Shown here piece by piece: positions 1 to 26,452 of a stretch of DNA of 28,611 nt. The DNA is taken from the IMG/VR virus record IMGVR_UViG_3300031577_000012, positions 1-28,611 of that record. One strand, 5' to 3'. The stretch comes from a virus. Taxonomy: Duplodnaviria > Caudoviricetes. The translations under genes and the position numbers were made by a program. Within the stretch, counting starts at the first letter, position 1; each line of letters begins with the position of its first letter. The notes under the pieces are model-generated. The model worked only from the letters and a program-made list of their open reading frames with translations. It made no database searches and had not been told where the DNA came from.

Positions 1-459
1 ATACTAGGCAATCATGATGAAACTCATATAACTAACGGCGGTTTTGATATTAGCGAAATAATATCGCTTAAAAGGCCAGATATGAAATTCCTTGGCTATT
101 CCAATGCAACGGTTAATATCGCGCCTAATACCACTGTAGAGTTATGGCATGGAAAAGATGGTAGCAGCTACGCGAATTCTTACGCCTTGCAAAAATACTG
201 TGATGCTATGATGTCAGGCCAAAAACCTTCTATATTGTTATCAGGTCATCGCCATAAGTCATTCCAAATGTTTTACCGTAATGTATTTTGTTTCGAAAGC
301 GGAACAACACAGGCATTGACCCCGTTTATGCGAGATAAGAAACTGGCGGCCTATGTAGGCGGTTGGATTATTGAAGTTAGAGTAGACGAAGAAGGAAGTA
401 TTAAAGGCTGTAAAGGCGAGTTTTTACCGTTATACGTTATGCGAAAGGATGATTATTGA
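1..459 (+). CDS. Calcineurin-like metallophosphoesterase, 5'-truncated by the window edge
   Basis: Frame 1 is open from base 1 (ILGNHDETHIT...) into the 82..459 ORF. It carries the metallophosphoesterase motifs GNHD, LWHG and SGHRH. Confidence 0.85.
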   Translation: MLGNHDETHITNGGFDISEIISLKRPDMKFLGYSNATVNIAPNTTVELWHGKDGSSYANSYALQKYCDAMMSGQKPSILLSGHRHKSFQMFYRNVFCFESGTTQALTPFMRDKKLAAYVGGWIIEVRVDEEGSIKGCKGEFLPLYVMRKDDY

Positions 460-977
460 TGAATTATATTAGGACAGAATGCCCAAATTGTGGTACGAAT
501 GTAGTATCTTTGTCTATTCCTTTGGAATATGGCTCTACATATAGATGCGAGTGGTGCAAAAGAGAATTTACAATATACGAAAACGGCAAATGCAAAATAT
601 TATCAATAGAGGGCAAAAATCAACCAATGGAAACCGCTACGTTGATTAGAAATAAGCCGCTAGAATTTACGGAAACAACAGAGTGGAAGAAACACGACAA
701 CATCGTTACAGGCGTAAAGGGCGGTAAACAGTCGAAGATCACTACAGCCTTTAGCCTGATGCCGCATAGGGCACTATTAGAGGTTGGACATGTTATGGCA
801 CAAGGGGCAGAGAGGTATGAAAAAGATAATTGGCGTAAGCTGACACCCGATGAAATATACGATCACCTGATGGAACACTTGATAAACTGGCATTTGACTG
901 GTGACAAAGAAGAATTGGCGCATGGCATGGCAAGGGCAATGATGCTATGGGAGGTTGCGGAAGATGCCGCAGAATAG
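459..977 (+). CDS. N-terminal Zn-ribbon fused to a dATP/dGTP diphosphohydrolase-like (DUF5664-type) domain
   Basis: ATG at 459 overlaps the upstream stop (TGATG). CPNC...CEWC zinc ribbon. The C-terminal FSLMPHRALLEVGHVMAQGAERYEKDNWRK...HLMEHL...LAH segment matches the family pattern (hh.VM..GA.KY...NW). Confidence 0.75.
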   Translation: MNYIRTECPNCGTNVVSLSIPLEYGSTYRCEWCKREFTIYENGKCKILSIEGKNQPMETATLIRNKPLEFTETTEWKKHDNIVTGVKGGKQSKITTAFSLMPHRALLEVGHVMAQGAERYEKDNWRKLTPDEIYDHLMEHLINWHLTGDKEELAHGMARAMMLWEVAEDAAE

Positions 978-2563: not shown

Positions 2564-2597
2564 AAATACATAAAAGTTCACATTAGGAGTGGTTGCA

Positions 2598-3167
2598 ATG
2601 AACGCTAAAGGAAATATAGCAGAAGTTAAGCCAATTAAAGATGTTAAGAAAATTGAAGATATGAAGGAATTTTTACTTAGTCGCAATGAACGTGATTATT
2701 TAATGTTTGTGCTAGGTATTAATAGCGGCTTACGGATTAGCGATTTGCTGAAACTTACCGTAGAAGATGTGAAGGAAGGTATCGTGCAGATTAGGGAAAA
2801 GAAAACTGGTAAAGTTAAACAGTTTGCTCTGTCTGATACATGCGTTAAAGCAATAAAAAAATACTTAAAAAATACAGGAATTAATACAGGAACACTATTT
2901 CCCAGTGCCAAGGGAGAAAATAAACCTATAAGCGAAAAGAGCGCATGGAGAATACTGAAAACCGCCGCTGAATGGTGTGGGATAGAAGAAAACGTAGGGA
3001 CTCACAGTATGAGAAAAACCTTTGGGTATCACGCCTTTAAACAAGGTGTTGAGCCGTACTATATCATGAAGTGCTTAAACCATTCCAGCCTAGTAGTAAC
3101 GAAACGCTATATTGGCATTGAACAGGATGAATTAGACGAAATGGTATATTCTCAAATGAATCTTTAA
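2598..3167 (+). CDS. Minimal tyrosine recombinase (catalytic domain only)
   Basis: Complete catalytic set: R (GLRISD), K (EKKTGK), HxxR (HSMRK), H (LNHSS), Y (RYIG). About 190 aa with no arm-binding domain. RBS spacing favours ATG 2598. Confidence 0.92.
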   Translation: MNAKGNIAEVKPIKDVKKIEDMKEFLLSRNERDYLMFVLGINSGLRISDLLKLTVEDVKEGIVQIREKKTGKVKQFALSDTCVKAIKKYLKNTGINTGTLFPSAKGENKPISEKSAWRILKTAAEWCGIEENVGTHSMRKTFGYHAFKQGVEPYYIMKCLNHSSLVVTKRYIGIEQDELDEMVYSQMNL

Positions 3168-8846: not shown

Positions 8847-10283
8847 ATGGATAACATGACCCAAATTACCCAAGAAACCCTTGATATGGTGAAATCAGCG
8901 CAAGACATGAATAAAGCGATTACCTTGGCTACTGGCCTTTCCGGCTATTCCTTGGAAGCACCTGCGAAACAGCTAGTTCCATTCCTTTCGCCTTTGCGTA
9001 ACCAGATTCCACGTAAACTTTCTAAGACAGGCTCTAGCGTACATTGGAAAGCAATTAGTGCCGTTGATGCGGCTGGTAAAGCTACTGCGGCAGAAGCAAC
9101 CAGAGGCAACGGAATGTCTTATACTCTGGAAGATAAATTAGCAACCTTCAAAGTTATTTCATTGCAAGACAGCGTGTCGCTTGAATCCGAAGCGGCTGGA
9201 CGTAATTTCCAAGATGCTAAAGCTACGGCGGCAACTAACTTGTTGTTGCGTGTAATGACCGAAGAAGAAAAGCTAATTCTCGGCGGTAATATTACCTCGC
9301 TGGGAACTATGTCCGCACCTACAGTAGCCACTTCGACCACTGGAGGCTCTATTGAGGCTAATACGTACTATGTAAAGGTCGCGGCGTTGACTCTTGTAGC
9401 GGCTAACCGTGTCGTATTGAACAGTCAGAAAGCTAGTCTTGTATTGGGCGTAACTGCAACCGATTCTTCAAATGCTACTATATCAGGCGCATATGACGGT
9501 GTAACGGCGGCAAGTTCTAATACGTCTATTACTACCACTGGTAGTGCATCAACCTTGACCCTTACTGCAACTCCGATTAGCGGCGCGTTGGCTTATGCTT
9601 GGTTTATTGGTACGACTTCCGGCTCTGAAACTTTGCAGATCGTAACTACTAACAGTGCAGTAACCATTGAAAAAATTGTATCGGGTGGAACTACTGCACC
9701 AACCGCTGACGGTTCTGGCGATGCTCTTGCATTTGACGGTATTATTCCTCAGATTATTAATGGTGGTGGCTATTACCTTGATATGGCTAACGGTCAATTG
9801 ACCCAAGCTAGTGGTGGTGTAGAACAGCTTGACGAATTGAACAGTTATCTATTCCAAAACTTCAAAATCGGCCCGACTCGCTACCTTGTATCCGAACAAT
9901 TACACAAAGATATTACTTCGGCTATTATTAGTGGTGCTGGTGCCCCTACGTTGTTTGTAAACAATGCGGAGAAAAACGATATTACTGGTAACTATTTGGC
10001 AACTAAGTATGTAAATAAATCGTATGGCGGCAATATTGTTAAGATCGAAGCGCACCCGTGGCTACCAAATGGGACTATGATCGCTATGGCTGACAATGTT
10101 CCTTATCCTAACGCCAATATTCCTTCCGTAATGGAAATTGAGTGCGGCTATGATTATCGTCAAATCGAGTATGCTTTCACTAGCCCGAAATATGAATTTG
10201 AGGTACGTTCGTATGAAGCATTGAAACATTACTTCCCATCGGCACAGGCTATTATTACCAACGTTAAGTCAGGTATTGCCTAA
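8847..10283 (+). CDS. Major capsid protein with an internal Thr/Ser-rich insertion
   Basis: Follows the protease/scaffold gene and has a very strong RBS. Motifs PLRNQIPR, EEKLILGG...AFDGI, IEAHPWLPNG and a C-terminal IITNV are typical of HK97-fold capsid proteins. Confidence 0.88.
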   Translation: MDNMTQITQETLDMVKSAQDMNKAITLATGLSGYSLEAPAKQLVPFLSPLRNQIPRKLSKTGSSVHWKAISAVDAAGKATAAEATRGNGMSYTLEDKLATFKVISLQDSVSLESEAAGRNFQDAKATAATNLLLRVMTEEEKLILGGNITSLGTMSAPTVATSTTGGSIEANTYYVKVAALTLVAANRVVLNSQKASLVLGVTATDSSNATISGAYDGVTAASSNTSITTTGSASTLTLTATPISGALAYAWFIGTTSGSETLQIVTTNSAVTIEKIVSGGTTAPTADGSGDALAFDGIIPQIINGGGYYLDMANGQLTQASGGVEQLDELNSYLFQNFKIGPTRYLVSEQLHKDITSAIISGAGAPTLFVNNAEKNDITGNYLATKYVNKSYGGNIVKIEAHPWLPNGTMIAMADNVPYPNANIPSVMEIECGYDYRQIEYAFTSPKYEFEVRSYEALKHYFPSAQAIITNVKSGIA

Positions 10284-12153: not shown

Positions 12154-12159
12154 TGAACA

Positions 12160-12618
12160 ATATCAATAGTAACTTATGACCCGATTATAGCGACAATACG
12201 AACATATTTACTGGCTAACAGTAGTATTACATCCTTACTGGGTACTTTTACAGACTCAAGTAGTAATACATGCTATGCCATATATCCAGGCTATATCAGC
12301 GGTGTAAATAACCCTGTTTTCCCATGTATAACAATTATGAAGGACACATCGGAGACATTTGCACAAGCGCCTGTATTCGATGGTGACACCTATTATATTC
12401 ATGGCTGGTCAAAGAATGGGCCAGATGAAGTCGCTTACTTATACAATCTTGTTGTGTCTACTATAGATACGGCAGAAAATATGAGGAGCGCTATTGCAGA
12501 GTTGGCCAAATGCCGTAAAGTAGATGGCAAATTTAACTATGATATAGAAACTCGAACGGATTATTTTATGATTCAGTTTTCTATAATTGCATCACGTGGA
12601 CTAATGAACGCCTGCTAA
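12160..12618 (+). CDS. Tail terminator (SPP1 gp17/lambda gpU-like), probable ATA start
   Basis: The frame is open from 12157. The part upstream of ATG 12337 encodes IIATIRTYLLANSSITSLLG...AIYP...PVFPCITI, typical of terminator N-termini. Lies directly before the tail tube gene. Confidence 0.7.
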   Translation: MSIVTYDPIIATIRTYLLANSSITSLLGTFTDSSSNTCYAIYPGYISGVNNPVFPCITIMKDTSETFAQAPVFDGDTYYIHGWSKNGPDEVAYLYNLVVSTIDTAENMRSAIAELAKCRKVDGKFNYDIETRTDYFMIQFSIIASRGLMNAC

Positions 12619-12662: not shown

Positions 12663-13751
12663 ATGGGTAATCAATATCCTTTTGGTTGTGCGTCTGTATA
12701 CGCTGTTGACTCGGACGGTATACCACAAGAGCTAATGAGTATCAGCGATATTACGCTTGACTTCAACCGAGATTCGAAAGAATTGGTAACACGCAGAGCA
12801 TACGCCGATATTATCGCACTAGGCAAAGGCACCATTAGCGGTAAGGGAACGATCAACGTTGTTAATAAAGACGCTATGGAACAACTATTTAACGGTGTCG
12901 GTTCAAGTACCGCAGGTCAACGGCTATGGCTACAAGAAGCGTTCTCACTGTCGGCAGGAACGTCAACATATACCGTTGCACAGGCGGCTAATTTCTATCA
13001 GGATTTGGGCGTTAAAAAAGTCATTGGCTCGACTAACTCCAAAATTCTAAAAGGAACTACTTCTACCGTTCCGGGCGTTGGCGAATACTATTGCGCTGAT
13101 GGTGTGTATACCTTCAATAGTTCGGATACAACTTCCGCTATGTCTGGTGTGGCAAGTTATTTGTATTCGAAAACAGCTACAGCAGGGGCGATGACCTACA
13201 CTGTAACCACTAACGCGGTGGCGGCTGATACGGTTACAGTTGCTGGAGTAACCCTTACAGCAACCGCGGCTACAACCGATAGCACTAATTTTGAGGTTGG
13301 CACTACCATTGCGGCTACTGTAGCAAATATTGTTACCGCATTGAACGCCAATACTACGGTTACAAACCTCTATACTGTAACTACCACTGGTGCAACCTTT
13401 ACCCTGACTGAAACGGATGCAGGTGAAGGGAATACTCCTGCCGCCGCAACATACACGGGCACAATTGTTATCTCTAGCGGAACGGCTACTACTTCCGTAT
13501 CTGCTGACGGTAATATTATTGCCCTGACTAACGTAAAACAAGCCGCCGCGACATTTTTCTCGATGTTCATCCAAGGCGACTTGATTAATAAACAGAATGA
13601 ATCTAAGCAAATGAATGTATGGCTAAATTGCTGTTTGTCGAGTAAGATCGGCATGGCATGGAAGTCAGAAGCGTTCAACGGCTCATCTTTCGACTTTAAA
13701 GCAACAGCAGACGATTTGAACAGTCTAGGCTGGATTAGTATGGGAAGTTAA
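12663..13751 (+). CDS. Major tail tube protein with inserted accessory domains
   Basis: PFGC..VY, ISDITLDF...KEL, ALGKGTISGK and C-terminal FDFKATADD tube motifs. Strong RBS. Lies before the chaperone and tape measure genes. Confidence 0.85.
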   Translation: MGNQYPFGCASVYAVDSDGIPQELMSISDITLDFNRDSKELVTRRAYADIIALGKGTISGKGTINVVNKDAMEQLFNGVGSSTAGQRLWLQEAFSLSAGTSTYTVAQAANFYQDLGVKKVIGSTNSKILKGTTSTVPGVGEYYCADGVYTFNSSDTTSAMSGVASYLYSKTATAGAMTYTVTTNAVAADTVTVAGVTLTATAATTDSTNFEVGTTIAATVANIVTALNANTTVTNLYTVTTTGATFTLTETDAGEGNTPAAATYTGTIVISSGTATTSVSADGNIIALTNVKQAAATFFSMFIQGDLINKQNESKQMNVWLNCCLSSKIGMAWKSEAFNGSSFDFKATADDLNSLGWISMGS

Positions 13752-14493: not shown

Positions 14494-17400
14494 ATGGCAG
14501 ATTCCAGTTTAGGCGAATACAAAGTTATTATCGGTGCTGATTATTCGGCTTTAACCGCATCTATGACAGCAATTACTCAGGCTGTAAGCCAATCAGCGCA
14601 GGACATAACTTCTAAAATGTCTACGATGACCGAAGGTATAGGTAAAAGCATGTCGGAAATGGCGGCTACTACCAGAACTGCGGCCTTGCAATCAGCTGAA
14701 CAGATTAATAGCATGAATAGTGCCCTTAAATCTGTTGAGACAGCAGGGGCGGCTAATTCTATTAAGAATGTCGGCAGTGCTACTGAAAGCCTAGGCCCAG
14801 CTTTTCAACGTGCCGCTTCAAGTGCAAGTGGATTAACTGGGGCGTTAGGTAAGCTAAAAAGCCATTTAGAATGGATTGGCACAGCGGCTTTTCTGGGCGG
14901 CATAGTTGCAATACCAGCGGCTATAATCGGCGTAACAGAATCAACAGAAGCGTTAAACGCCAAGATTAGGCAAAACCTTGAATTGTCTGACCGATACCAC
15001 GGCAACAACGAATTGCTTGACGCTGACATGCAACGATTAACACAGACTGCCCAAACTTATGCTGTTGGATATGGTGCTAGTATTGAAGACGTACAGCAAG
15101 CAATGCAAGTCCTGTCAAGAAGGTTCAAAGATGTCGAAATTGTATCATATTTGACAAGCGTTGCGCTAACTATGAATAGGCTCGACCAAGTTCAACTTAC
15201 AAAGGCAAGTCAGGATTTAGAAGCTGTAATGCTCCAATTTGGTTTATCAGGCGAAGGAACTAAACAATTTTTAAACGATTTTACAGTTGCGGTACATACG
15301 GCCAGAGTCACCGGGACAGATTTACTCGATGCGTTAGAACGCTCTGGGAGTGCGTTTAAAGGCTTTAATATGGACTGTAGAGAATCTATTGCGGCTGTTG
15401 CGGCACTGTCTACAGAAACGGCTCGCGCCGGAGGAACAATTGGCAACAGCTTCAAAAGTATAGCCGCAAACTTCGATACCAAAAAAGCTATCGAAGCGTT
15501 AGACGCTTACAATATCAAGCTATATGAAGTAAATGAAAACGGCACTAAGACAATGCGAAGCGGTGCAAATATATTCGGCGAGTTGCAAAACCTATTTCAA
15601 CAGCTAGACGATGAAGGACAGCGCAAATTGGCCTTGTCCTTGGCTGGTGGCAAATTCCAAGTTAACCAATTAATGGCCTTCCTAGAGGACGCTAATGGAA
15701 ACTTTTCTAAGATCATGAATGAAATGAAAGAGAAGTCTTCTGACGCAATGACTCAACAATTATTAGCAGTTTCCATGCAAACGTACCAAGTTAAAATTGC
15801 TCAGTTTAAGGCGGCGTTACAGGTATTAGCACAGACAATTGGTAATCAGGTATTACCTGCACTGAAAAAATTTGCTGTATTCCTCACTGGTAGCGCGATG
15901 TGGTTACAACAACATTCTACGGCTGTAATAAATGTAGGAAAAGGGTTGTTAATTTTAGTCGCTGGATACGTGGCGGTTCGTACGGCGGTTGGCATGGCGG
16001 CTATTGCAACGGGATTATATAACATAGCATTAGCGGCTACTACTGGAACAGTAGCACTATCGGCGGCAGGAACCTGGGCACAGTCGGCGGCAAGTGCGGC
16101 GGCAACAATAGCTACAACGGCACAAATAGCGGCTACTGACGGATTAGCAACAGCATTTAGGGCATTATGGGTTGCAATGGGGCCAGTTGGCTGGGTAATT
16201 CTTGGGATTATCGCCCTTGGAACAGCTATATACGAAGTTTATACCAATTGGAGTACAGTCGGCCCTTTGCTAATAGGCATATGGAACGGACTAATAGATT
16301 TTATTTATCAATGTTGTGAAAATGCTCTAAAAACGTTTCCTCTATTGGGCGTTGGTTTGTATGTGGTATACGCACTGTTTGAGGGAACAATCGAACTAAT
16401 TAAAGCACAATGGAATGGCTGGATTAGCTTTTTTAGTAGTGCGGCACAGATAATATATAAAATAATTATCAGCACTTGTGACGCTTTACCAGCTTTAGTA
16501 CAAGGCTTTAAGGACGCAATATCTAATATTTGCGGCGGTTTATTCGACTTCTCTGGCGTACAATTACCAGAATGGGCTAATCAGGTTATTTCTTATTTCT
16601 CGCAATTAGCTGATAAAATCGACGCATTAGCTGATAGAATAGCTAACAAAATTCGTAGTATCTTAGATATGGCGAAAGCAGCTACAAGTGCTGCAGATAG
16701 TAATGCGACGCCAGAAGAAGACCCTTTTCAAAAGGCCATTAACGAGCAAAAAGCCATGTACGAACAGTTTAAGGCTCAAATGGATTCTAGTATGGCTCCT
16801 GTTACAGCGCCAACCTTACCTGACCAAATAGGTGGCGGTGGCGCAGGGGGTAGTAGCGGAAGACACGGCGGTTCTGGTAGTTCCAGTGAATCAGGCGAAA
16901 CCGAATACGAACAGCAGAAAAAAGCCTATGAAGCGGCTAAAACACAAGCAGAGTACGATACAGAAAGTCAAGGTAAGAAGTTTACCGCTAACGATGATTT
17001 ATACTTATATAACGCCTTTTTGTCGGAAACACCCAAAACTGATGACAATAAGCATCAGGAAACTTTGGATTACAATAAGGGCGAATATGAGCGTAAGAAG
17101 AAGATCATTGACGAAGAATTAGAACTAGATCAGGCTAAATATGACCGTGAAGAAGCTATGGCAAAAATATCTGAGGACAAAAAAAAGCAGATTGAAAATG
17201 ATATTGCTCAGAAAAAGGCTAATGGTGAAACGCTTTCGCCTGATGAGGAAAAGGTTTACATAGCCTTACAAAAGGTCAATAGCGAATTAGCAGGTTCAGC
17301 TAAATGGTACGAACAGCGGAAAGCCGCTATAGAAGCTGAAACAAAGTTGATCGAAAATCAGCTAAAGGTAATAAAAGAACGGGCTAACCTAGAGAGAACA

Positions 17401-18636
17401 GCGTCAGCGGCACAAAAGGCCAAAGAAAATCCTGGTATTAATGTAGATGCTGTAATGGGTACGGAAAACAAAGAAAAGAAGACACAGCAGGAAAAAGTAG
17501 CGGCTAAACAAACCTACGATGATAACGAGCAAGAAACAGTAGAATTAGTTAGTGAAAGTGCGAAGAATTTAACTACACAATTAGATTTGTACAAGCAGTA
17601 TTGTAATGCTACTACATCGGCAGATCGGGCGAAAACCGAAAAGCTGATGGAAGACAACTCAACGGATGCCACTCAACTAAGATCGACTTTAAACGCCAAA
17701 ATGGCGGCTACTAAAGAGTATTATAATAAGAAGAATAATTTAGACCTTCAATCTTACCAGCAGGAGAATCGCTACGAAATAGCAGCCTTAAAAGCGTATA
17801 CTTCCGGCGTTGAGCAGGCTATGAATAGCATCCTTACTAAAACTAAGTCGTTCAAAGAGGCTATGACAAGCATCTTTAGTAGCCTTTGGAAAGCTGTAGC
17901 ACAACAGTATAGTAGCGATTTTGCAACGAAGTGGACCGCTGGCTTGAATAAGTTGGTGCTAGGTCAAAAGAAAGCCAACAACGAAGTCAAATCAAATACC
18001 ACAACAACTACTGCCGCTGAAACAGCTAATAAAACAGCGGCTGATACTGCCGCGATAACTTCGGACAATAATAAAACAGCCAAAGAAATTGCAAACGCAA
18101 ACAAGCTAAAAGAAGCACAGCAAAATGCTAGTACAGAAGCCGCGCAAACCTCCGTTACTAATATAGGTACTGAATTAGTATCCTTGCTACAAATGGCGGC
18201 TATTATGTATGCTCTGTCAGCGTTGTTTGGCGGCGGCTCTAGTTCATCTTCCAGCACCACAACCCGGTCAAGTTCCTCTTACTACGGCTCTGGGGTGGCG
18301 ACTACAAGTTTGCCGTCTTATGATGTAGGTACACTGGAAGTACCGGAGGATATGCTAGCACAGGTACATAAAGGAGAAACGATTGTCCCTGCTACTTTTG
18401 CTGAAGGCGCTAGGGACTTTATTTCAAATGGTGGTTTCTCTGGTAGCAATAATAATCAGCAACAACAATTCAGTGTTCCAAATGTAAGTAGCAGCCAAAA
18501 TTATAAAATCAGTGCAATGGACGGTGCGAGTGTTAAAAGGGTACTATCTAGCAATGCACAGCAGACAGCAAAGGGTATTTACAATGTGACAAGATCAGGA
18601 GCGCAATACAATGCTAATAGATGGAATTTAGCATAG
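14494..18636 (+). CDS. Tape measure protein
   Basis: 1380 aa, Ala-rich and helical. TP901-like core (AGGTIGNSFKSI), central hydrophobic/Trp-periodic segment, C-terminal SYDVGT..VP.DMLAQVHKGE motif. Confidence 0.93.
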   Translation: MADSSLGEYKVIIGADYSALTASMTAITQAVSQSAQDITSKMSTMTEGIGKSMSEMAATTRTAALQSAEQINSMNSALKSVETAGAANSIKNVGSATESLGPAFQRAASSASGLTGALGKLKSHLEWIGTAAFLGGIVAIPAAIIGVTESTEALNAKIRQNLELSDRYHGNNELLDADMQRLTQTAQTYAVGYGASIEDVQQAMQVLSRRFKDVEIVSYLTSVALTMNRLDQVQLTKASQDLEAVMLQFGLSGEGTKQFLNDFTVAVHTARVTGTDLLDALERSGSAFKGFNMDCRESIAAVAALSTETARAGGTIGNSFKSIAANFDTKKAIEALDAYNIKLYEVNENGTKTMRSGANIFGELQNLFQQLDDEGQRKLALSLAGGKFQVNQLMAFLEDANGNFSKIMNEMKEKSSDAMTQQLLAVSMQTYQVKIAQFKAALQVLAQTIGNQVLPALKKFAVFLTGSAMWLQQHSTAVINVGKGLLILVAGYVAVRTAVGMAAIATGLYNIALAATTGTVALSAAGTWAQSAASAAATIATTAQIAATDGLATAFRALWVAMGPVGWVILGIIALGTAIYEVYTNWSTVGPLLIGIWNGLIDFIYQCCENALKTFPLLGVGLYVVYALFEGTIELIKAQWNGWISFFSSAAQIIYKIIISTCDALPALVQGFKDAISNICGGLFDFSGVQLPEWANQVISYFSQLADKIDALADRIANKIRSILDMAKAATSAADSNATPEEDPFQKAINEQKAMYEQFKAQMDSSMAPVTAPTLPDQIGGGGAGGSSGRHGGSGSSSESGETEYEQQKKAYEAAKTQAEYDTESQGKKFTANDDLYLYNAFLSETPKTDDNKHQETLDYNKGEYERKKKIIDEELELDQAKYDREEAMAKISEDKKKQIENDIAQKKANGETLSPDEEKVYIALQKVNSELAGSAKWYEQRKAAIEAETKLIENQLKVIKERANLERTASAAQKAKENPGINVDAVMGTENKEKKTQQEKVAAKQTYDDNEQETVELVSESAKNLTTQLDLYKQYCNATTSADRAKTEKLMEDNSTDATQLRSTLNAKMAATKEYYNKKNNLDLQSYQQENRYEIAALKAYTSGVEQAMNSILTKTKSFKEAMTSIFSSLWKAVAQQYSSDFATKWTAGLNKLVLGQKKANNEVKSNTTTTTAAETANKTAADTAAITSDNNKTAKEIANANKLKEAQQNASTEAAQTSVTNIGTELVSLLQMAAIMYALSALFGGGSSSSSSTTTRSSSSYYGSGVATTSLPSYDVGTLEVPEDMLAQVHKGETIVPATFAEGARDFISNGGFSGSNNNQQQQFSVPNVSSSQNYKISAMDGASVKRVLSSNAQQTAKGIYNVTRSGAQYNANRWNLA

Positions 18637-18649
18637 GGCAGGTGATTGG

Positions 18650-19243
18650 ATGAGTGATGAAGTTTTTCCCTTATTGAGAGGGTTGTCGTTAGGTATAAAA
18701 AAGAAACCAGAGTTTAAAACAATACAGCAAACTAGCGTACTGGGGATAGATAAAACTCTATCCCTTGTTCCTTATCCTAAGTGGACATTCACTATCGGAT
18801 ACGAATATTTGCTAGATAAAAACTCGGTTAAAGATGACATACAGAAGTTAATTGGATTCTATATAAATCGCATGGGAAAATACGATGATTGGTTATATTA
18901 TGACCTATACGACAATTATTGTAATGGTCAAGAGTTCGGTACTGGTGACGGTTCAACAACAACATTTCAACTATGCAGATCATGGGGCGGCTTTATTGAA
19001 CCTGTGATCGGCGTACTGGATGACCCTGTTATTACTATAGATGGAGTACCTACAACCGCATTTACTTATACGTCAAAAGGTAAGGTTACCTTTACTACTG
19101 CCCCTTCATCGAGCGCAACGCTTGCATGGACGGGTGGTTTTTATTATAGGTGTAGATTTACGGAAGATGAGCAGGAATTTGAAGAGATTTTAAATGGAAT
19201 ATGGAAATGTGACAGTGTCATTTTTAAGTCGGTGCTGATATGA
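18650..19243 (+). CDS. Distal tail protein, DUF2460/GTA-type
   Basis: VFPLLRGL, KKPEFKT, FGTGDGSTTTFQL, VTFTTAP and WTGGFYYRCRF motifs. Directly follows the tape measure gene. Confidence 0.85.
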   Translation: MSDEVFPLLRGLSLGIKKKPEFKTIQQTSVLGIDKTLSLVPYPKWTFTIGYEYLLDKNSVKDDIQKLIGFYINRMGKYDDWLYYDLYDNYCNGQEFGTGDGSTTTFQLCRSWGGFIEPVIGVLDDPVITIDGVPTTAFTYTSKGKVTFTTAPSSSATLAWTGGFYYRCRFTEDEQEFEEILNGIWKCDSVIFKSVLI

Positions 19244-20124
19244 AGACATGTTCAACAGCATTACTCACATTGCTCAACTCGGCAACAAGCTTGTGCCTGG
19301 TTGAGCTTTTTAAATTCACGCTCACAGACGGAACAATATTCCGCTTTACTTCTCTTCCCTATAATTTTACATGCGGTTCATATAGCTATAGCCCATTACC
19401 AATTGACACGGGCGGTCTAAAACAATCGCTGGGTTTCAGTGTTGACGAATTGTCAATCACAATGTATTACGACACAGACACATTGACCATAAATAATAAT
19501 TCGGTTTATATTCCACGTGCGCTTAGATCAGGTTCATTCAGATGGGCTACATGCGAATATTCACAGGTGTTCATGGAGTCATGGGCATTGTCGGCTACAG
19601 AGGATTATCAATTAGTATTGTTCGTAGGCAGGACAGAAGTCGAATCTGCCGGACGTACAAAAGCTGAATTAAAAATCAAGACATTTACTGACCTGTTAAC
19701 AACCAAAAGTCCTCCTAATCTTTACCAGGCTGGATGTATGAATTGCCTATACGGTGATACTTGCGGCTTAGATGAAGACGATTGGACAGAAAGCTATACA
19801 TTGTTATCTGGCAGTACAAAAAGCAAGCTGTATGTCACTTGTAGCCATTCGGCTAGTTACTATCAAGGCGGCTATGTAAAATTCTCTACAGGCGATAATT
19901 ACGGTCTTAGCAGGACAATAAAAAGCCATACTTACGATTCTAGCATGGGTATAGCAACACTAAGCCTTATGTATAACCTGGAATATACTCCCGTTACAGG
20001 CAACACAGTGAAGCTAATAGCTGGATGTGACCATACTCGCTCACTTTGTAAAAGCAGGTTCTCTAATGGTAGTAGTTACAGGGGAACACCTTTCATTCCA
20101 GTTCCTAGGGTATCTGCTAGTTAA
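19240..20124 (+). CDS. Baseplate hub protein, DUF2163/BR0599-type (lambda gpL-like)
   Basis: Cys motifs YQAGCMNCLYGDTCG and AGCDHT...CKSRF..YRGTPFIP. Confidence 0.88.
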   Translation: MKTCSTALLTLLNSATSLCLVELFKFTLTDGTIFRFTSLPYNFTCGSYSYSPLPIDTGGLKQSLGFSVDELSITMYYDTDTLTINNNSVYIPRALRSGSFRWATCEYSQVFMESWALSATEDYQLVLFVGRTEVESAGRTKAELKIKTFTDLLTTKSPPNLYQAGCMNCLYGDTCGLDEDDWTESYTLLSGSTKSKLYVTCSHSASYYQGGYVKFSTGDNYGLSRTIKSHTYDSSMGIATLSLMYNLEYTPVTGNTVKLIAGCDHTRSLCKSRFSNGSSYRGTPFIPVPRVSAS

Positions 20125-20141
20125 TGGAAGGAGATTAATTT

Positions 20142-20585
20142 ATGACTGATTTAGAACGACAACAACGGCAACAAGTAGTAGACGAAGCAAAATCCTGGCT
20201 AGGCACTCCGCACATTAACGAAGCACGGGTAAAAGGGGCTGGCGTTGATTGTGGTATGTTGGTACTAGAAACATTCGAACGGTGCGGTCTTGTCCCACAT
20301 ACGGAATTACCACATTACTCTAATGAATGGCACTTGCATCACTCGGAAGAACAATATTTAGACTGGGTTAGCAAGTTCGGACATGAAGTTAAGAACCGTG
20401 ACCCACTTCCTGGTGATGTAATCTTGTACCAATACGGCAGATGTATTAGCCACGGCGCGATTGTGGTCGATTATCCAACCATAATCCATGCCTATATAAG
20501 GATAGGCGTTGTCTATGCTGATGCGACACAAAACAATCTATCGAAGCGTCAACGGGCAATATATTCCTTCTGGCCAGAAGGGTAG
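20142..20585 (+). CDS. Tail-associated NlpC/P60 peptidase
   Basis: AKSWLGTP, GAGVDCGML (catalytic Cys), PGDVILY, SHGAIV and IIHA motifs. Confidence 0.92.
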   Translation: MTDLERQQRQQVVDEAKSWLGTPHINEARVKGAGVDCGMLVLETFERCGLVPHTELPHYSNEWHLHHSEEQYLDWVSKFGHEVKNRDPLPGDVILYQYGRCISHGAIVVDYPTIIHAYIRIGVVYADATQNNLSKRQRAIYSFWPEG

Positions 20586-20594
20586 GAGATATAT

Positions 20595-23048
20595 TTGGGC
20601 GGTTCAACAGTATCAACAGGGACAAAATACGATTATTTAGACATCACTACCTCAGTATTCGGGCAACCACTTTCTATAGTGTACGGTACTCATAAACTTA
20701 GCGGTAACTGTATCGATTATGTTGATTTCACAGTTATAACAACGTCAACTACAAGCGGTAAAGGCGGCGTTACAACGGACAGTTACACTTATGAAGTAGC
20801 GGCGGCAATTGGACTGTGCGAAGGGACAATAGGCGGTATAGGCAGGATATGGGACTCTAGCACAGCATACGAAAAAAACTCGCTTAATAGTGATTATGGT
20901 TTTGATACGGCTACTAAAACGGCAATAGCAGCACTGTATTATGATTCCGATGGTGATGCGTTGGACACTGAAGACGATTTAAGCGTGTTTTATGGCACTA
21001 AAAGCCAGTCGGCATGGTCGTATATGACGAGTAAGCACAACGGTACTGTAACGGTAAGTACAAGCGGTTCGGGAACAGTACCATCTTCCAGCCCTTACAC
21101 GCTGACAATAACATTACCATCTACATCAGATACCTTTAGTAGCCTTACTTCTGTTTACTATTACAATGATGAAAGAAAGGTAACGCTTAGCACTGAATAT
21201 TATAGTTTTTCATCTTCTACATTAAAATTCACTTTCGATCAAGATTTTAGAGGTACAAAGATTTATTATACTTACAAGTATACTTATTATAGTGAAACCG
21301 CAAACCATGTTTTAACGTATCCTTACATCGCGTATGTGGCTGGCTATATATCATTAGGAAGCAGTAATTATCTAACTTCATACGGGTTTGAAGTGTTCGG
21401 GAAGAACATTTACGGTTCGGGTAATTTAGACTGCGAACCGTATTTGATTATTAAAGGGCTTTTAACTGACTCTGTATACGGCATTGATTACCCAACAGCC
21501 TACCTTGACGACATGAGCGAATATCAAACGTATTGCCTAGCAAGCGATATATTTCTCTCATTAGCATTAACAGACCAAGCAGAACTGTCGGATACCTTTA
21601 ACGACATAGCAAAGGCAACCAACAGTAACGCTATCGTTAGTCAAGGAATATTGAAGATAATTCCATACGGTACAACCAGCCTGACAGCTAACAGCACCAC
21701 ATATACGCCAGATTTAACACCAATATATTCGTTGTCTGACACCGATTATATCTATGATGATGACGACCCCGTTAAGCTAGGTACAGACAGCACAAGCGAC
21801 ATATATAATTTTCAGCAACTTACATTTAAGAATCGTGCTGATGAATACGCCGACGATGTTATTAGTTGCGAAGACCTGGCAAGTATTGACGATATTGGAC
21901 TTAGAAAAGCCGATTCTGTCAGCCTAGACTGTGTTACAACGTCAGCGGTGGCGGCTATTGTGGTCGTAAATATTGCCGAACGGACTATATACCATCGTAA
22001 TACCTACACGCTGAAAGTTCCTTATTTCCCATTTATCCTATTGGACCCAATGGACCTACTCGAAATAACTGACGATTACCTTGGACTTGATGCTGAATTG
22101 GTACGGATAAATGAAATTGAGGTTGACGAAAACAAAACAATCCAGCTAACAGTAGAAGAAGTTGGAGCAACAGGTAGTGGAACTGTTACTTACAGCAGAC
22201 AAGAACCAGTACGGGCAGGAACTAACACGGCTACATCCCCGGGTGATGTAAACACGCCTATTATTTTTGACCCTCCAAGCGGCCTTACTGACGGCACATT
22301 AGAAACCTGGATAGCGGCAAGCGGTGAATCGTCAAATTGGGGCGGTTGCTATGTTTATGTTTCACAGGACGGCGATAGCTACAAAAAGGTTGGCGAGATT
22401 AGTTCAAAATGTAAAACAGGCTTATTAACGGCTGACCTAGCTACAACAACTACTAGCCCTGACACAAGCAATACGCTGTCTGTCGATTTAACCGAAAGTA
22501 GCGGCACATTGTCAAGTGGTACACAGACAGACGCAACTAGTTACAACACTATTTGCTATGTGGACGGCGAGTTGATCGCATATGAAACAGCGACATTGAC
22601 CGCCGAATATAATTATGATCTAACATATTTAGTTCGTGGTATATATAGCACTACAATAGCCCAACACGAAAACGGGACACAATTCGCAAGACTAAACGAT
22701 TCCGTATTCAAATATGAATTTGGTGATAACTACGTTGGACAGACCATTTATATTAAGCTGTGTTCCTACAATATATATGGTAGTGGTGTTCAGTCCCTTT
22801 CGGACGTAACGGCATACACTCATACATTGACTAATAACGGCAAAGGTTCTTCTAGCGCAAGCTATACATTCACGCAATCGACAGCTAGTGCAACTTGGTC
22901 AATCACTCATGATTTGAATAAATACCCGTCTGTAACCTGCGTTGACACGTCCGGGAATAGCATTGTCGGTAGCGTTACTTATGATTCGCTAAATGCGCTA
23001 ACAATTACGTTCTCAGAAGCATTGACAGGAACAGCATATTTAACCTAA
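20595..23048 (+). CDS. Tail tip/host-specificity protein (lambda gpJ/GTA megatron-like)
   Basis: FGQPLSIVYG, GLCEGTIGGIGRIW, LLDPMD, WGGCYVYVSQDG, YLVRGIYST and IYIKLCSYN motifs. TTG start after an AGGAG RBS. Confidence 0.88.
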   Translation: MGGSTVSTGTKYDYLDITTSVFGQPLSIVYGTHKLSGNCIDYVDFTVITTSTTSGKGGVTTDSYTYEVAAAIGLCEGTIGGIGRIWDSSTAYEKNSLNSDYGFDTATKTAIAALYYDSDGDALDTEDDLSVFYGTKSQSAWSYMTSKHNGTVTVSTSGSGTVPSSSPYTLTITLPSTSDTFSSLTSVYYYNDERKVTLSTEYYSFSSSTLKFTFDQDFRGTKIYYTYKYTYYSETANHVLTYPYIAYVAGYISLGSSNYLTSYGFEVFGKNIYGSGNLDCEPYLIIKGLLTDSVYGIDYPTAYLDDMSEYQTYCLASDIFLSLALTDQAELSDTFNDIAKATNSNAIVSQGILKIIPYGTTSLTANSTTYTPDLTPIYSLSDTDYIYDDDDPVKLGTDSTSDIYNFQQLTFKNRADEYADDVISCEDLASIDDIGLRKADSVSLDCVTTSAVAAIVVVNIAERTIYHRNTYTLKVPYFPFILLDPMDLLEITDDYLGLDAELVRINEIEVDENKTIQLTVEEVGATGSGTVTYSRQEPVRAGTNTATSPGDVNTPIIFDPPSGLTDGTLETWIAASGESSNWGGCYVYVSQDGDSYKKVGEISSKCKTGLLTADLATTTTSPDTSNTLSVDLTESSGTLSSGTQTDATSYNTICYVDGELIAYETATLTAEYNYDLTYLVRGIYSTTIAQHENGTQFARLNDSVFKYEFGDNYVGQTIYIKLCSYNIYGSGVQSLSDVTAYTHTLTNNGKGSSSASYTFTQSTASATWSITHDLNKYPSVTCVDTSGNSIVGSVTYDSLNALTITFSEALTGTAYLT

Positions 23049-23812: not shown

Positions 23813-26452
23813 TTGAGCGATACAATTGTTATAACCTTGGATGACGCATCTTCTGCGGCTTCTTACGCAACAGCGGCGGCGGCAAGCGCAGCAGCGGCGG
23901 CGGCAAGCGCAACGACAGCAACAACCGAAGCAACGGCGGCAGAAGAAGCGGCCACCAACGCGCAAACATACTATACAGACGTACAAACTATTTTACAAAG
24001 TTCAGCAACATATACAACTTCCATAAATCAACTAACATTAGAAGAGTCTACAGGATACGGAATTGTTACCGGATTAGAAGTATCAGCACAATCTACAGCT
24101 AATATGACGGTTGCTGTTGCGGCAGGTACTGTTCATTTGCCAAGCGGTTACCGTTATGCCATATCAGCAGTATCTTCTCAGACGATTAGCAATGCCGATA
24201 GTACAAAGCCAAGAATCGATTTAATTTATGTAAGCTCAGCCGGGGCGGTTACTTATGAAGCTGGTGAACTCGGAACAGTGGCAGTCGCTGGTAGTGATAC
24301 TTACACACTGACAACTAATTTCGCAAGCGGAGATACTATCGTTTTTGACGGCATTACCTTCACGGTCACGACAGCAACACAAGATTCGACGGATTTTGTT
24401 CTTGGTAGCACCATAGCAACATCAATGACTAACTTCGCAACTGCTCTAAACGCCAATTCTACGATAAGCGCCACATATACGGCAACCGTAAACGATGGGG
24501 TTATAACTGTTGCCGAGACTACAGCAGGTGGCGGTAATATGCCGGGTAGCATGACTGTAACCGGAACAGGCGTTATTACCGCTGGAACGGCAACAACCTC
24601 AACAGAGGCAAGCGCAACAACTCCAACCTTGCCGAGCGGCGCATTGTCTTTAGCACAAATATCTGTAACGGCTAATGCAACCGCAATAACTGCTACAGAT
24701 ATTACAGATACTAGAATATTAAAGACCGAAGCAAAGGAATATATTGACGGTATCAACGCAATGTATCCTCCTGAACCATTAGTAGGAATAAGAGGAGACG
24801 GCACTAGTGATGATACAAGCCGTTTAAAAAGCATTGTAAGTTATGCAAAAACCAATTCGGCTAAAGTTTTTATTCCACCGTGTACCGTTCTAACGTCTTC
24901 GCCTATTCAGCTTTACGATAATGTTGCGGTTATCGGTTCCGGCATAAATTCAACGATAATGTTAAATACAGCAACATCGGTATTTGTTAATTATGATCCA
25001 GATAATCCAACAGATACCGATAGTTGGAGTAATAATATAAATATTGAGGGTGTAGGTTTTAGAGGTGACACAGATACAAGCCAGACCGTGCCTCATCTCA
25101 CAAGTGATACCAGTAGTTTAAATAAGCATTTATTTGTTGATTGCTCCTATAGTGTATCGAGTTATACAGACTCAAATACAGGATTAACAGTAACGCATTC
25201 TTATTCTTATAGTACAGACGCAAGGTGCGCGGTTCATCTTTGCATTGGTTCAAGTTCTCGCCTTGACAATCTTTATGCAGAAGGTTTTGATATAGGTTTC
25301 CAATTAGAAGGTGGAAGTATGTATAAGATTGATAAGCTTTCTGCATCATGGAACAAAATAGCGTTTGCAACTAATTACGACCCTGTGAACAATAGTACAA
25401 AAACTACTACAATTAGTATGAATACCTGCGATTTTTCATACAATTATATTGATTTGAAATTAAAAGAGTGCCAGGATTCTAATTTCGTTAATGTTAATTA
25501 TGACAGAGCATCGTTAGGGCTATGGTTAATTAATGTTTATGGTTTAAAATTTGAATCAACTTATTGCGAAATAGTATACGATGCTGTTCTTAATGAAGGT
25601 TCTTACGGCAATGACAATATAATGGAAAAATGTTATTTTTATTGGGTAAATGATAGCGGGACAATAAAATTACAACGCGGCAAATGGTATTTAAAGTCTC
25701 TTCGCGGAGGATGCGCGATTAATATAGCAAATAGTACAGCTAGTGTAGTGATAACCGACCTAGATACTAGCTATACAGTAACACGAAGCACTAGCTATCC
25801 TTATTCTTACATCGTTGGGAGCAGTGAAAGATTAATTAATTTGCTTTATCCCGACCCTTTCTTTTTGTTGAATGGGACAATGATTACTTATGGCGCGGGG
25901 ATTAGTTCGGTAACGTATTCGGCTGATAGCGAATGTTCAGCTAAAAATATATTAGTAGCGGTCGGCACAGCAGGAACACAAGCGTCAAACGGGTTGCGAA
26001 TAGCTTTACCTTCTAGCATAACAATACCACAGGACACGCCTATCAGAATTAATTTTGAATATCAATATACAGGGAGCGATACGGTTGCCGCCGCTCCGAT
26101 AGGTATTAAATATGGTTCAAATTTATTAGCGCATAAAACATTAACCACGGCAACTGAATGGACAACATACGAGGATGCTCTAATGTCTACAAGCGGTTAT
26201 TTGTCTCCTACTTATACCTATGGAACAGGCGGTTTTTCTGGTACGTTATCTATTCGTAATTTATTTATATATATCGGAGAACAAAAGCCAATATATAATG
26301 ATTTGTACGCCCCGTTGGGACAAGCTTGTACAACCGCTAATAGACCAACAAAAGGGATTATAGCGGGATATTCTATATTTGATTCGACTCTTGGATACCC
26401 AATATGGTATAGCGGTTCAGCATGGGTTAATTACGCTGGTACTACTGTATGA
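23813..26452 (+). CDS. Tail fibre/spike with a predicted beta-helix (pectin-lyase-like) receptor-binding or depolymerase domain
   Basis: Ala-rich coil, then an anchor domain (GLEV...MTVAVAAG...PRIDLI...LAQISV...ITDTR). Beta-helix entry motif GDGTSDDT...VFIPP, a possible carbohydrate-binding domain, and C-terminal TTANRP...FDSTLGYPIW..W motif. Confidence 0.85.
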   Translation: MSDTIVITLDDASSAASYATAAAASAAAAAASATTATTEATAAEEAATNAQTYYTDVQTILQSSATYTTSINQLTLEESTGYGIVTGLEVSAQSTANMTVAVAAGTVHLPSGYRYAISAVSSQTISNADSTKPRIDLIYVSSAGAVTYEAGELGTVAVAGSDTYTLTTNFASGDTIVFDGITFTVTTATQDSTDFVLGSTIATSMTNFATALNANSTISATYTATVNDGVITVAETTAGGGNMPGSMTVTGTGVITAGTATTSTEASATTPTLPSGALSLAQISVTANATAITATDITDTRILKTEAKEYIDGINAMYPPEPLVGIRGDGTSDDTSRLKSIVSYAKTNSAKVFIPPCTVLTSSPIQLYDNVAVIGSGINSTIMLNTATSVFVNYDPDNPTDTDSWSNNINIEGVGFRGDTDTSQTVPHLTSDTSSLNKHLFVDCSYSVSSYTDSNTGLTVTHSYSYSTDARCAVHLCIGSSSRLDNLYAEGFDIGFQLEGGSMYKIDKLSASWNKIAFATNYDPVNNSTKTTTISMNTCDFSYNYIDLKLKECQDSNFVNVNYDRASLGLWLINVYGLKFESTYCEIVYDAVLNEGSYGNDNIMEKCYFYWVNDSGTIKLQRGKWYLKSLRGGCAINIANSTASVVITDLDTSYTVTRSTSYPYSYIVGSSERLINLLYPDPFFLLNGTMITYGAGISSVTYSADSECSAKNILVAVGTAGTQASNGLRIALPSSITIPQDTPIRINFEYQYTGSDTVAAAPIGIKYGSNLLAHKTLTTATEWTTYEDALMSTSGYLSPTYTYGTGGFSGTLSIRNLFIYIGEQKPIYNDLYAPLGQACTTANRPTKGIIAGYSIFDSTLGYPIWYSGSAWVNYAGTTV
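23871..23911 (+). repeat. In-frame tandem repeat with 21-bp period
   Basis: CAGCGGCGGCGGCAAGCGCA occurs at 23871-23890 and again at 23892-23911, encoding Ala/Ser heptads. Confidence 0.85.

What the first reader, a model, noticed from the sequence alone, without database searches (positions are those of the whole stretch)
13173..13496. The same 108-aa domain is inserted in both the tail tube and the tail fibre
Seen: tube residues TATAGAMTYTVTTN...NFEVGTTIAATVANIVTALNANTT...ETDAGEGNTP...GTATTS (13173-13496) align without gaps to fibre residues VAVAGSDTYTLTTN...DFVLGSTIATSMTNFATALNANST...ETTAGGGNMP...GTATTS (24278-24601). My hand count is about 56/108 identical residues. Inference: both copies interrupt otherwise contiguous domains. 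In the tube it sits between SYLYSK and DGNIIALTN; in the fibre it sits between TYEAGELG and PTLPSGALSLAQI. It therefore looks like a portable surface-display module, present in many copies along the tail and again at the fibre base. Its beta-beta-helix pattern (DTVTVAGVTLTA...F.VG...T..NI..ALN) reminds me of flagellin variable-region and tail-sheath insertion domains. That raises the unverified idea of a captured host flagellar or surface domain used for adhesion, mimicry or as a glycosylation acceptor.
Basis: partly seen in the sequence, partly recalled or inferred. Interest (0 to 1): 0.8.

Follow-up and report, generated by a model that had tools for sequence, protein, structure and literature searches.

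The report
Plug-in tail domain shared with flagellins
This phage carries two old copies of the same 108-residue protein domain, one inserted in its likely tail-tube protein and one in its tail fibre; relatives lack it at these sites or carry up to seven copies, its sequence is related to repeats in giant bacterial flagellins, and it likely works as an optional surface knob that helps the particle cling weakly to cells, though no binding partner has been shown.

Summary
Observation confirmed: 56 of 108 residues identical without gaps, far above composition-preserving shuffles. Both copies are optional inserts. Tube relatives lack the block or carry it in another loop. Fibre relatives carry 0 to 7 copies at this site, some nested. 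The family spans 719 sequence clusters: tubes, sheaths, cement and head proteins, fibres, giant Bacillota flagellins, an S-layer protein, FlgE. A profile built from flagellin repeats alone finds both window copies at about 60 bits. The predicted fold matches the sheath D3 domain (Z 10.9), more weakly flagellin and FliD; that fold-level link is already in print. Capture from host flagellin is not supported: flagellin repeats and phage copies fall on separate sides of the tree, and 1 of 187 flagellated genomes of the likely host class showed it. The two copies are no recent duplication. Function is untested; weak multivalent adhesion is my best guess. Earlier notes of this scan describe a look-alike module on other DNA. 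New variant of a known kind; interest 0.45.

The parts
13173..13496 (+). Module copy 1 (108 aa), inserted in the tail tube protein at aa 171-278, between the peripheral domain and the return to the tube core
   Evidence: fold
24278..24601 (+). Module copy 2 (108 aa), inserted in the N-terminal domain of the tail fibre at aa 156-263
12663..13751 (+). Likely tail tube protein, 362 aa; module-less relatives are 246-256 aa
   Evidence: Lies before two small genes and the tape measure gene; same order in phage Polewnik; phrog_8234, unknown function; module-less P0007 scores 0.97 with clusters that carry PF27173 YomU_Tube on 11-68% of members
23813..26452 (+). Tail fibre or spike, 879 aa, with a pectate-lyase-like region at aa 325-538
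   Evidence: PF12708 E 2.5e-9; C-terminal tail-fibre PHROG hits
24026..24277 (+). Left half of the fibre N-terminal domain that hosts the insert (aa 72-155)
   Evidence: Joined to the right half by 2 residues in P0254 and L025
24617..24721 (+). Right half of the same fibre domain (aa 269-303)
   Evidence: phrog_9534 hit at aa 255-302
14494..18636 (+). Tape measure protein, 1380 aa (context: a long tail, so many tube subunits)
   Evidence: PF10145 and PHROG tape-measure hits
18650..23048 (+). Tail-tip genes: DUF2460, baseplate hub, NlpC/P60, central tail protein (context: no sheath gene found, so likely a non-contractile tail)

Best explanation
The block is an optional protein domain, predicted to fold on its own, inserted once in the likely tail tube and once in the tail fibre, and it likely acts as a many-copy surface knob that tethers the virion weakly to cell-surface or matrix polymers. 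Shown: it is absent from relatives at both sites, sits in a different loop in other tubes of the same family, occurs 0 to 7 times at the fibre site, and belongs to one sequence family with repeats of giant Bacillota flagellins and an S-layer protein. Inferred steps: (1) its two ends lie close together, so it fits into surface loops, including a loop of itself, which gives nested arrays; (2) it moves between virion genes by recombination among phages of Bacillota hosts, and this phage got its two copies by separate routes, a tube-type and a fibre-type; (3) it points outward, as the matching sheath domains do, once per tube subunit and once per fibre chain; (4) its use is accessory, low-affinity and multivalent, like that proposed for phage Ig-like domains. 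I put the plug-in surface-domain part at about 0.9 and adhesion as the main use at about 0.4.
For: Empty sites: P0007 and the Polewnik tube; P0254 and L025. Second site in the same tube family: profile position 168/169 here, 144/146 in P0009 and P0010; of 42 tube-family proteins 4 have this site, 31 the other, 7 were not classed. Copy number among 74 fibre-flank proteins: 55 with one, 8 with two, 4 with three, 2 with five, 1 with six, 4 with seven. 250 module-bearing proteins fall into 48 groups by flanking scaffold, among them DUF3383 and Phage_sheath_1 sheaths, Phage_TTP_1 and other major tail proteins, PF22758 cement, head decoration, SLH S-layer, FlgE. Separate routes: nearest relatives of the tube copy are 76% identical, of the fibre copy 86%; the window partner ranks 130 of 370 and 77 of 370. 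Traffic between sites: in nested fibre P0031 the inner copy is 80/107 to the fibre copy and 59/107 to the tube copy, the outer part 65/92 to the tube copy and 48/92 to the fibre copy. Kept under selection: against two relatives the tube module keeps 72-78% of residues, second codon positions 0.80-0.88, third 0.34-0.41. Fold: pLDDT 97.5; Z 10.9, rmsd 2.4, 93 aligned to the A-1(L) sheath; 9.8 phiTE, 9.5 Milano, 9.1 Mu. PMC11972413 places D3 laterally and PMC11915804 says the Mu domain III extends outward (passages). Nearly all identified hosts are virion or cell-surface filament proteins.
Against: No ligand or binding assay exists for this family. The module is poor in aromatic residues (W+Y+F 5.6% in 175 phage copies), so a classic sugar-stacking platform is not evident. 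The tube model failed (pLDDT 38), so exposure on this tube rests on analogy. PMC11972413 (Discussion) says it is unclear whether D3 domains share any conserved function and lists fibre docking and disulfide locking as uses in single phages. Tube identity rests on gene order and language-model features; no solved tube was hit by sequence. The family sample was drawn with a phage-seeded profile, so it is biased toward phage copies.
Confidence: 0.6

Rival explanations
1. Structural brace or docking knob: the domains stiffen the tail by touching neighbours, or park the folded-back fibre against the tube.
For: D3 domains contact tail fibres in phiTE, A-1(L) and Bas63 and lock the Milano sheath by disulfides (PMC11972413 Discussion). 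The fold also sits in T4 gp11 (Z 7.4) and T7 nozzle proteins (Z 7.5-7.6). A second prophage (G037) also decorates both tube and fibre.
Against: Insertion at two different loops of one tube family, 0-7 copies at the fibre site and use on heads, sheaths and flagella argue against one fixed geometry. Cys is 0.38% of phage copies, so no disulfide lock.
Confidence: 0.2
2. Passive shield: an inert Thr/Ala-rich coat that hides conserved surfaces from proteases, antibodies or grazers, with no ligand.
For: S+T 27.6%, few charged or aromatic residues. The Bxb1 capsid and tube extensions, a weak fold match (Z 5.3 and 5.1), are non-essential and immunodominant (PMC8704799 passages).
Against: Many positions are kept across unrelated hosts (D19 93%, G43 93%, E80 94%, G96 98% of 175 copies), though these may be structural. 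A copy at the fibre base shields little.
Confidence: 0.15
3. Glycosylation acceptor: host or phage enzymes add sugars to its Ser/Thr residues, as on flagellins, coating the virion.
For: High Ser/Thr content and sequence kinship with flagellin outer repeats. That flagellins are O-glycosylated is recalled knowledge.
Against: No glycosyltransferase family among 28 window ORFs or 102 ORFs of 190 aa or more on the + strand of 12 related loci. The window may be a part of a longer genome (the tube protein is on a 142,678-base contig), so genes elsewhere are not excluded.
Confidence: 0.12
4. Captured host flagellin domain used for mimicry or for binding the flagellum by like-to-like contact.
For: Reciprocal sequence homology: 62.7 and 58.4 bits with a flagellin-only profile, hhalign probability 99.5%. 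One genome of the likely host class has a flagellin with two repeats (G051). PMC10457771 proposed host capture for the XM1 sheath insertion from its FliD-like fold (passage).
Against: Flagellin and S-layer repeats lie on one side of a branch with support 0.96 (FastTree, 250 rows) and 95 (IQ-TREE, 115 rows, one non-cell row inside); no window-type phage copy nests among them. 17 other flagellins of that class, including ones from genomes G001, G037 and G058 that carry module-bearing prophages, gave no hit. The tree is unrooted, so an ancient flagellin origin, or the reverse, stays open.
Confidence: 0.1

Closest known systems
Sheath D3 domain, class I (A-1(L), phiTE, Milano; also Mu, 7-7-1, Sf14, Bas63)
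   Same: Same predicted fold over the whole module (Z 7.0-10.9); also an insertion of about 100 residues; other members of this family sit in sheaths (P0121, P0180, P0216).
   Different: 15-22% identity only; profile hits to the Milano and 7-7-1 sheaths are weak (E 2.7-3.2). Here it sits in a tube and a fibre of a tail with no sheath gene found, and it varies in site and number.
Flagellin outer domains and FliD D2/D3 (PDB 4nx9, 9atl, 5fhy); giant Bacillota flagellins such as Desulfotruncus arcticus A0A1I2P486
   Same: Fold match Z 7.5, 7.0, 6.8. Clear sequence homology to the tandem repeats of 840-1388 aa flagellins. The fold-level link between sheath domain, nozzle, auxiliary capsid proteins, FliD and flagellin is stated in PMC12846349 and PMC10457771 (passages).
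   Different: Phage copies share a conserved C-terminal stretch (positions 84-99) that flagellin repeats lack and form a separate side of the tree. I found no paper on a sequence-level family.
[quoted passage not shown]
   Same: One phage, one related domain on two virion proteins (47% identical), non-essential, function unknown (PMC8704799 passages). Weak fold match over the extension ranges (Z 5.3 capsid 302-397, Z 5.1 tube 193-283).
   Different: Bxb1 appends at the C-terminus; the window copies are internal inserts in tube and fibre. Z near 5 does not prove shared descent.
Ig-like accessory domains of phages (Big_2, I-set, FN3)
   Same: Optional, exchanged between unrelated virion proteins, proposed to aid weak adhesion (Fraser et al. 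2006, seen only as quoted in PMC9230969).
   Different: Different fold: a 14-residue helix packs on the strands; no Pfam Ig hit. It inserts into loops and into itself.
phrog_28344 (unknown function, 205 positions)
   Same: Matched 16 of 49 scanned proteins, mostly over their module.
   Different: Unnamed; does not hit the two window copies at E 0.001.

Membership tests
Sheath D3 class I fold | Beta-sandwich of about seven strands with a helix after the first strands (PMC11972413) | tested here: met
   Model has 8 short strands and helix 46-59 plus a short helix 61-66, pLDDT 97.5; Z 10.9, rmsd 2.4, 93 aligned
Sheath D3 class I fold | Inserted within a host chain and dispensable in relatives | tested here: met
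Sheath D3 class I fold | Part of a contractile sheath protein | tested here: not met
   Window copies are in tube and fibre; no sheath family among 28 ORFs. Other family members are in sheaths
Sheath D3 class I fold | Sequence-level homology to solved D3 domains | tested here: inconclusive
   E 2.7 and 3.2 to 7-7-1 and Milano sheaths, below a xylanase chance hit
Sheath D3 class I fold | Points outward from the tail | not testable with these tools
   Tube model pLDDT 38; no ring model possible
Bacillota giant-flagellin repeat | Reciprocal sequence homology beyond composition | tested here: met
   62.7 and 58.4 bits, next of 240 window frames 3.4; 1000 shuffles each max 11.6 and 8.0; reversed below 0; hhalign E 3.4e-23
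Bacillota giant-flagellin repeat | Descent from a flagellin repeat (phage copies nested among them) | tested here: not met
   Separate sides of the tree; unrooted, 96-97 columns, so ancient direction is open
Bacillota giant-flagellin repeat | The phage's own host has such a flagellin | not testable with these tools
   Host unknown; 1 of 187 flagellated genomes of the likely class showed it
Phage Ig-like accessory domains | All-beta Greek-key sandwich (recalled definition) | tested here: not met
   Long helix in the model; no Pfam Ig family at E 0.01
Phage Ig-like accessory domains | Sporadic presence across unrelated virion proteins | tested here: met
Phage Ig-like accessory domains | Weak binding to surface carbohydrate | not testable with these tools
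   No assay; aromatic content low
Bxb1-type capsid and tube extension | Same fold | tested here: inconclusive
   Z 5.3 and 5.1
Bxb1-type capsid and tube extension | C-terminal position | tested here: not met
   Internal in both window proteins; C-terminal in relative P0109
Intein or other self-splicing insert | HINT family match and splice-junction residues (recalled definition) | tested here: not met
   No Pfam hit; ends vary and show no such residues; fold is sheath-D3-like
YomU-type tail tube (PF27173), for the host protein | Family match | tested here: inconclusive
   Feature score 0.97 for P0007, family on 11-68% of cluster members; the Pfam copy scanned gave no hit

The most novel reading that the evidence does not exclude
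Phage virions and Bacillota surface filaments draw on one shared, still unnamed pool of plug-in domains. Phages insert it into any surface loop, stack it up to seven times and nest it inside itself, while flagellins and S-layers build arrays of it. If it binds a common ligand, or itself, it is a general adhesion or camouflage module traded between phage and host, and its copy number would tune how sticky or how long a fibre is.
Probability: 0.25. Interest if true: 0.75.

Novelty: new variant of a known kind. Interest (0 to 1): 0.45.

Why it matters
The function of sheath D3-type domains is stated to be unclear (PMC11972413), and their likeness to flagellar proteins was noted only at fold level. 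Here is a sequence family with natural empty, single, tandem and nested alleles at the same site, plus cellular members at 42-46% identity. That makes two questions testable: what the domain binds, and which way it moved between phages and flagella. A small domain that is predicted to fold alone and is tolerated in many loops may also serve as a display scaffold.

Tried and rejected
Composition artefact: rejected by shuffles and reversals. Recent duplication within this genome: rejected by near-random third codon positions and neighbour ranks; the AU test of the two copies as one clade did not finish. DNA-level mobility signals: no repeat pairing the two copies or flanking them among the 20 largest direct-repeat families shown; the DNA alignment shows no conserved ends. 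Pfam and PHROGs: no hit for either copy. NCBIfam: 4 families hit one row each of 16, best FlgL at E 1.9e-4. Xylanase D CBM hits (E 0.08-0.57) were treated as chance; the fold search does not back them. Cultured phage records: no match to the module or the fibre N-region. Full tube fold: pLDDT 38 from a 5-row alignment, not used. Tube profiles against solved structures: nothing meaningful. The wide VIA search was never run because the machine was busy, so the Z-scores come from a re-alignment of Foldseek's 305 chains; Foldseek alone gave no PDB hit at E 0.001 or better (best 1.6e-3). Predicted complex of tube copy with fibre copy: no answer, score 0.00, no evidence either way. Search of viral contigs with module-less tube P0007: nothing. 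Earlier-findings look-ups by sequence and by place: nothing. The 1114-aa flagellin of G037 has repeats of another sequence type with, by eye, a similar strand-helix pattern; my profiles did not score them and I did not fold them.

Full report
Setting. The window is a 28.6-kb virus record with a head and tail gene block on the + strand: terminase, portal, protease, capsid, connectors, a 362-aa gene, two small genes, tape measure, DUF2460, hub, NlpC/P60, central tail protein, fibre, amidase. No sheath family was found among the 28 ORFs scanned, so the tail is likely non-contractile. Named relatives come from Pelorhabdus, Anaeromusa, Megasphaera and Massilibacillus; that these are Negativicutes is recalled, and the host itself is unknown. 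The 362-aa gene is likely the tail tube: same gene order in phage Polewnik, and its module-less relative P0007 resembles clusters bearing PF27173 YomU_Tube (score 0.97). No solved tube was hit by sequence.

Observation. The two blocks are 56 of 108 identical without gaps. The score is 285 against a shuffle maximum of 114 in 5000, and 141 with local shuffles; 25 identities are not Thr or Ala. Third codon positions match at 28 of 108, so the copies are old.

Both are optional inserts. Tube: P0007 (256 aa; 52% and 62% identical in the two flanks) and the Polewnik tube (246 aa) lack the block exactly. Seven cultured-phage records match P0007 over 91% or more of its length, and the module has no match in that collection; I aligned only Polewnik. 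Against a profile of three module-less tubes the window insert lies at position 168/169, that of P0009 and P0010 at 144/146, a second site in the same family. Of 42 tube-family proteins, 4 have the first site, 31 the second, 7 were not classed by my pattern. Fibre: P0254 and the L025 fibre join the flanks with 2 residues; others have spacers of about 113, 223-227, 336, 678 and 776. Among 74 proteins grouped by this flank, copy numbers were 1 (55), 2 (8), 3 (4), 5 (2), 6 (1) and 7 (4). P0212 appears empty at this site but has the module at aa 787. Some double and triple forms are nested: a whole copy sits just after the first strand of another; 9 of 19 multi-copy proteins matched a nesting pattern.

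The family. A 16-row profile finds 719 clusters at E 0.001, 165 at 1e-10 (I saw the best 150). The 250 module-bearing proteins I held fell into 48 groups by flanking scaffold. One protein per group was scanned, and others. Hosts include DUF3383 and Phage_sheath_1 sheaths, several major tail protein families, PF22758 cement, head decoration proteins, fibres and spikes, flagellins, one SLH S-layer protein and one FlgE; many hosts had no family. Neither window copy hits Pfam or PHROGs. phrog_28344, of unknown function, matched 16 of 49 scanned proteins. The nearest ESM Atlas clusters are unnamed viral proteins (0.93), with crAss_AuxCP at 0.89, a lead only. A second prophage, in G037, decorates both tube and fibre at other sites, and L006 and L045 each carry the module in two genes.

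Flagellin link. Five flagellins of 988-1388 aa carry 4-8 repeats. A profile iterated on these five alone (32 repeats; the seed stretch was located with the phage profile) scores the window copies at 62.7 and 58.4 bits, the next of 240 frames at 3.4. Shuffles reach at most 11.6 and 8.0, and hhalign gives 99.5%, E 3.4e-23, 37% identity over 84 columns. One named carrier is the Desulfotruncus arcticus flagellin. In 401 genomes drawn from the phylum, 7 matched: one prophage, five genomes with flagellins, one unidentified fragment. In 401 genomes of the class, 8 matched: seven in phage-type proteins, one flagellin, while 187 have a flagellin gene. Seventeen other flagellins of that class, chosen for length or for lying in lysogens, gave no hit. 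These searches use a loose first look and incomplete genomes, so they are lower bounds.

History. The tube copy's nearest relatives are 76% identical, the fibre copy's 86%; the partner ranks 130 of 370 and 77 of 370; best flagellin identity is 42%, best S-layer 46%. In FastTree (250 rows after an identity filter on 371 domains) all 73 flagellin and S-layer rows are one side of a branch, support 0.96. In IQ-TREE (115 rows, 96 columns) that branch has SH-aLRT 95 with one non-cell row inside, FlgE falls among phage rows, and the two window copies lie in separate well-supported sets. Most forks are unresolved and there is no root. So: shared ancestry, no recent capture, direction open. Nested fibres P0031, P0037 and P0040 join a fibre-like inner copy with a tube-like outer one; P0035 and P0038 show this less clearly or not at all. 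L023 matches the window's tube copy at 69% over 272 bases. This points to exchange between tube and fibre genes, which I infer to be by recombination. The tube module evolves about as slowly as its host gene (72-78% against 79-81%).

Fold. AlphaFold2 gives pLDDT 97.5, pTM 0.90: four strands, a long and a short helix, four strands. Foldseek ranks sheaths first but with E 1.6e-3 at best; in BFVD 10 hits pass E 0.001, among them a major tail and a major capsid protein. Re-alignment gives Z 10.9 for the A-1(L) sheath (residues 90-186), 9.8 phiTE, 9.5 Milano, 9.1 Mu, 7.5 T7 tail, 7.5 P. aeruginosa FliC, 7.4 T4 gp11, 6.8 FliD, 5.4 Patience, 5.3 and 5.1 Bxb1 capsid and tube. The tool warns that Z under 8 may mean only a common arrangement.

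What is in print. PMC11972413 (passages and part 1 of 2 of the Discussion) defines D3 classes, places D3 laterally and calls its general function unclear. PMC12846349 (passage) lists the same domain in sheaths, podovirus nozzles, auxiliary capsid proteins, FliD and flagellin. PMC10457771 (passage) notes the FliD likeness of the XM1 insertion and suggests host capture. PMC8704799 (passages) reports the 47%-identical, non-essential Bxb1 extensions. PMC9230969 (passages) proposes adhesion or stability for extra sheath domains. PMC11445458, PMC10966104 and PMC11915804 were seen as passages; the JBD30 tube has a decoration domain at residues 88-175 of 256, which fits by position, not by tested homology, with the window insert lying at the end of such a domain. 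Searches found no account of a sequence-level family joining these phage inserts to Bacillota flagellin repeats; the library lacks most subscription papers. Earlier notes of this scan describe a look-alike module in a connector and tail tube, in a giant adhesin, and as a nested stalk. I did not test whether they are the same sequence family, and a look-up by sequence found none.

How it most likely works. Shown: optional, mobile, conserved, on virion and cell-surface filament proteins. Inferred: ends close together, outward display once per subunit, movement by recombination. For use, I rank weak multivalent adhesion first (about 0.4), then brace or fibre dock (0.2), passive shield (0.15), glycosylation acceptor (0.12) and flagellar mimicry (0.1). 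Against a classic lectin, aromatics are 5.6% of residues; against a disulfide lock, Cys is 0.38%; against phage-run glycosylation, no transferase was found nearby.

Verdict. A real feature. The fold, its likeness to flagellar proteins and the idea of shuffled accessory domains are known. The unnamed sequence family, the empty-to-sevenfold allele series, the nesting and the sequence-level tie to flagellin and S-layer repeats are what this adds. New variant of a known kind, interest 0.45.

Noticed in passing
window 8847-10283: The likely major capsid (phrog_13692) has a Thr/Ser/Ala-rich internal stretch at about aa 150-290 that the module profile does not match (3.4 bits); perhaps another accessory domain.
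   Followed up: no
window 456-977 and 2589-3167: A dATP/dGTP diphosphohydrolase-domain gene (PF18909) lies just before the terminase, and a 192-aa tyrosine recombinase lies between terminase and portal.
   Followed up: no
window 12157-12618: The frame before the tube gene is open for 153 codons and its early part resembles by eye the matching gene of the G037 prophage, but the first ATG is at 12337 and no ATG/GTG/TTG lies in frame near 12157-12180; possibly an unusual start codon.
   Followed up: partly
window 27540-28268: A 242-aa gene after the amidase has a CarboxypepD_reg or prealbumin-like domain and relatives at the same place in L002, L003, L004.
   Followed up: no
P0006: Near-identical to tube P0004 but lacks 27 residues inside the module, between two copies of a four-residue word; a real deletion or an assembly slip.
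   Followed up: no
L001/L002:9296-12421, L023:2431-5958, P0027: Nested copies of the module, two deep in L001 and L023, three deep in P0027.
   Followed up: partly
L067:56-3397 (G037): A 1114-aa flagellin with tandem repeats of another sequence type, in a genome whose prophage carries the module twice.
   Followed up: partly
P0239; P0227: A 907-aa FlgE hook protein with about four related repeats, and a 1364-aa SLH S-layer protein with about five.
   Followed up: partly
L030:3168-4433: A gene right after the portal in a related phage ends in a domain matching Pfam TNT (E 3.6e-32).
   Followed up: no
L001:12890-13858; L003:9500-12220: An acyltransferase gene follows the fibre in L001, and the L003 fibre carries a polysaccharide deacetylase domain in place of the pectate-lyase-like region.
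   Followed up: no
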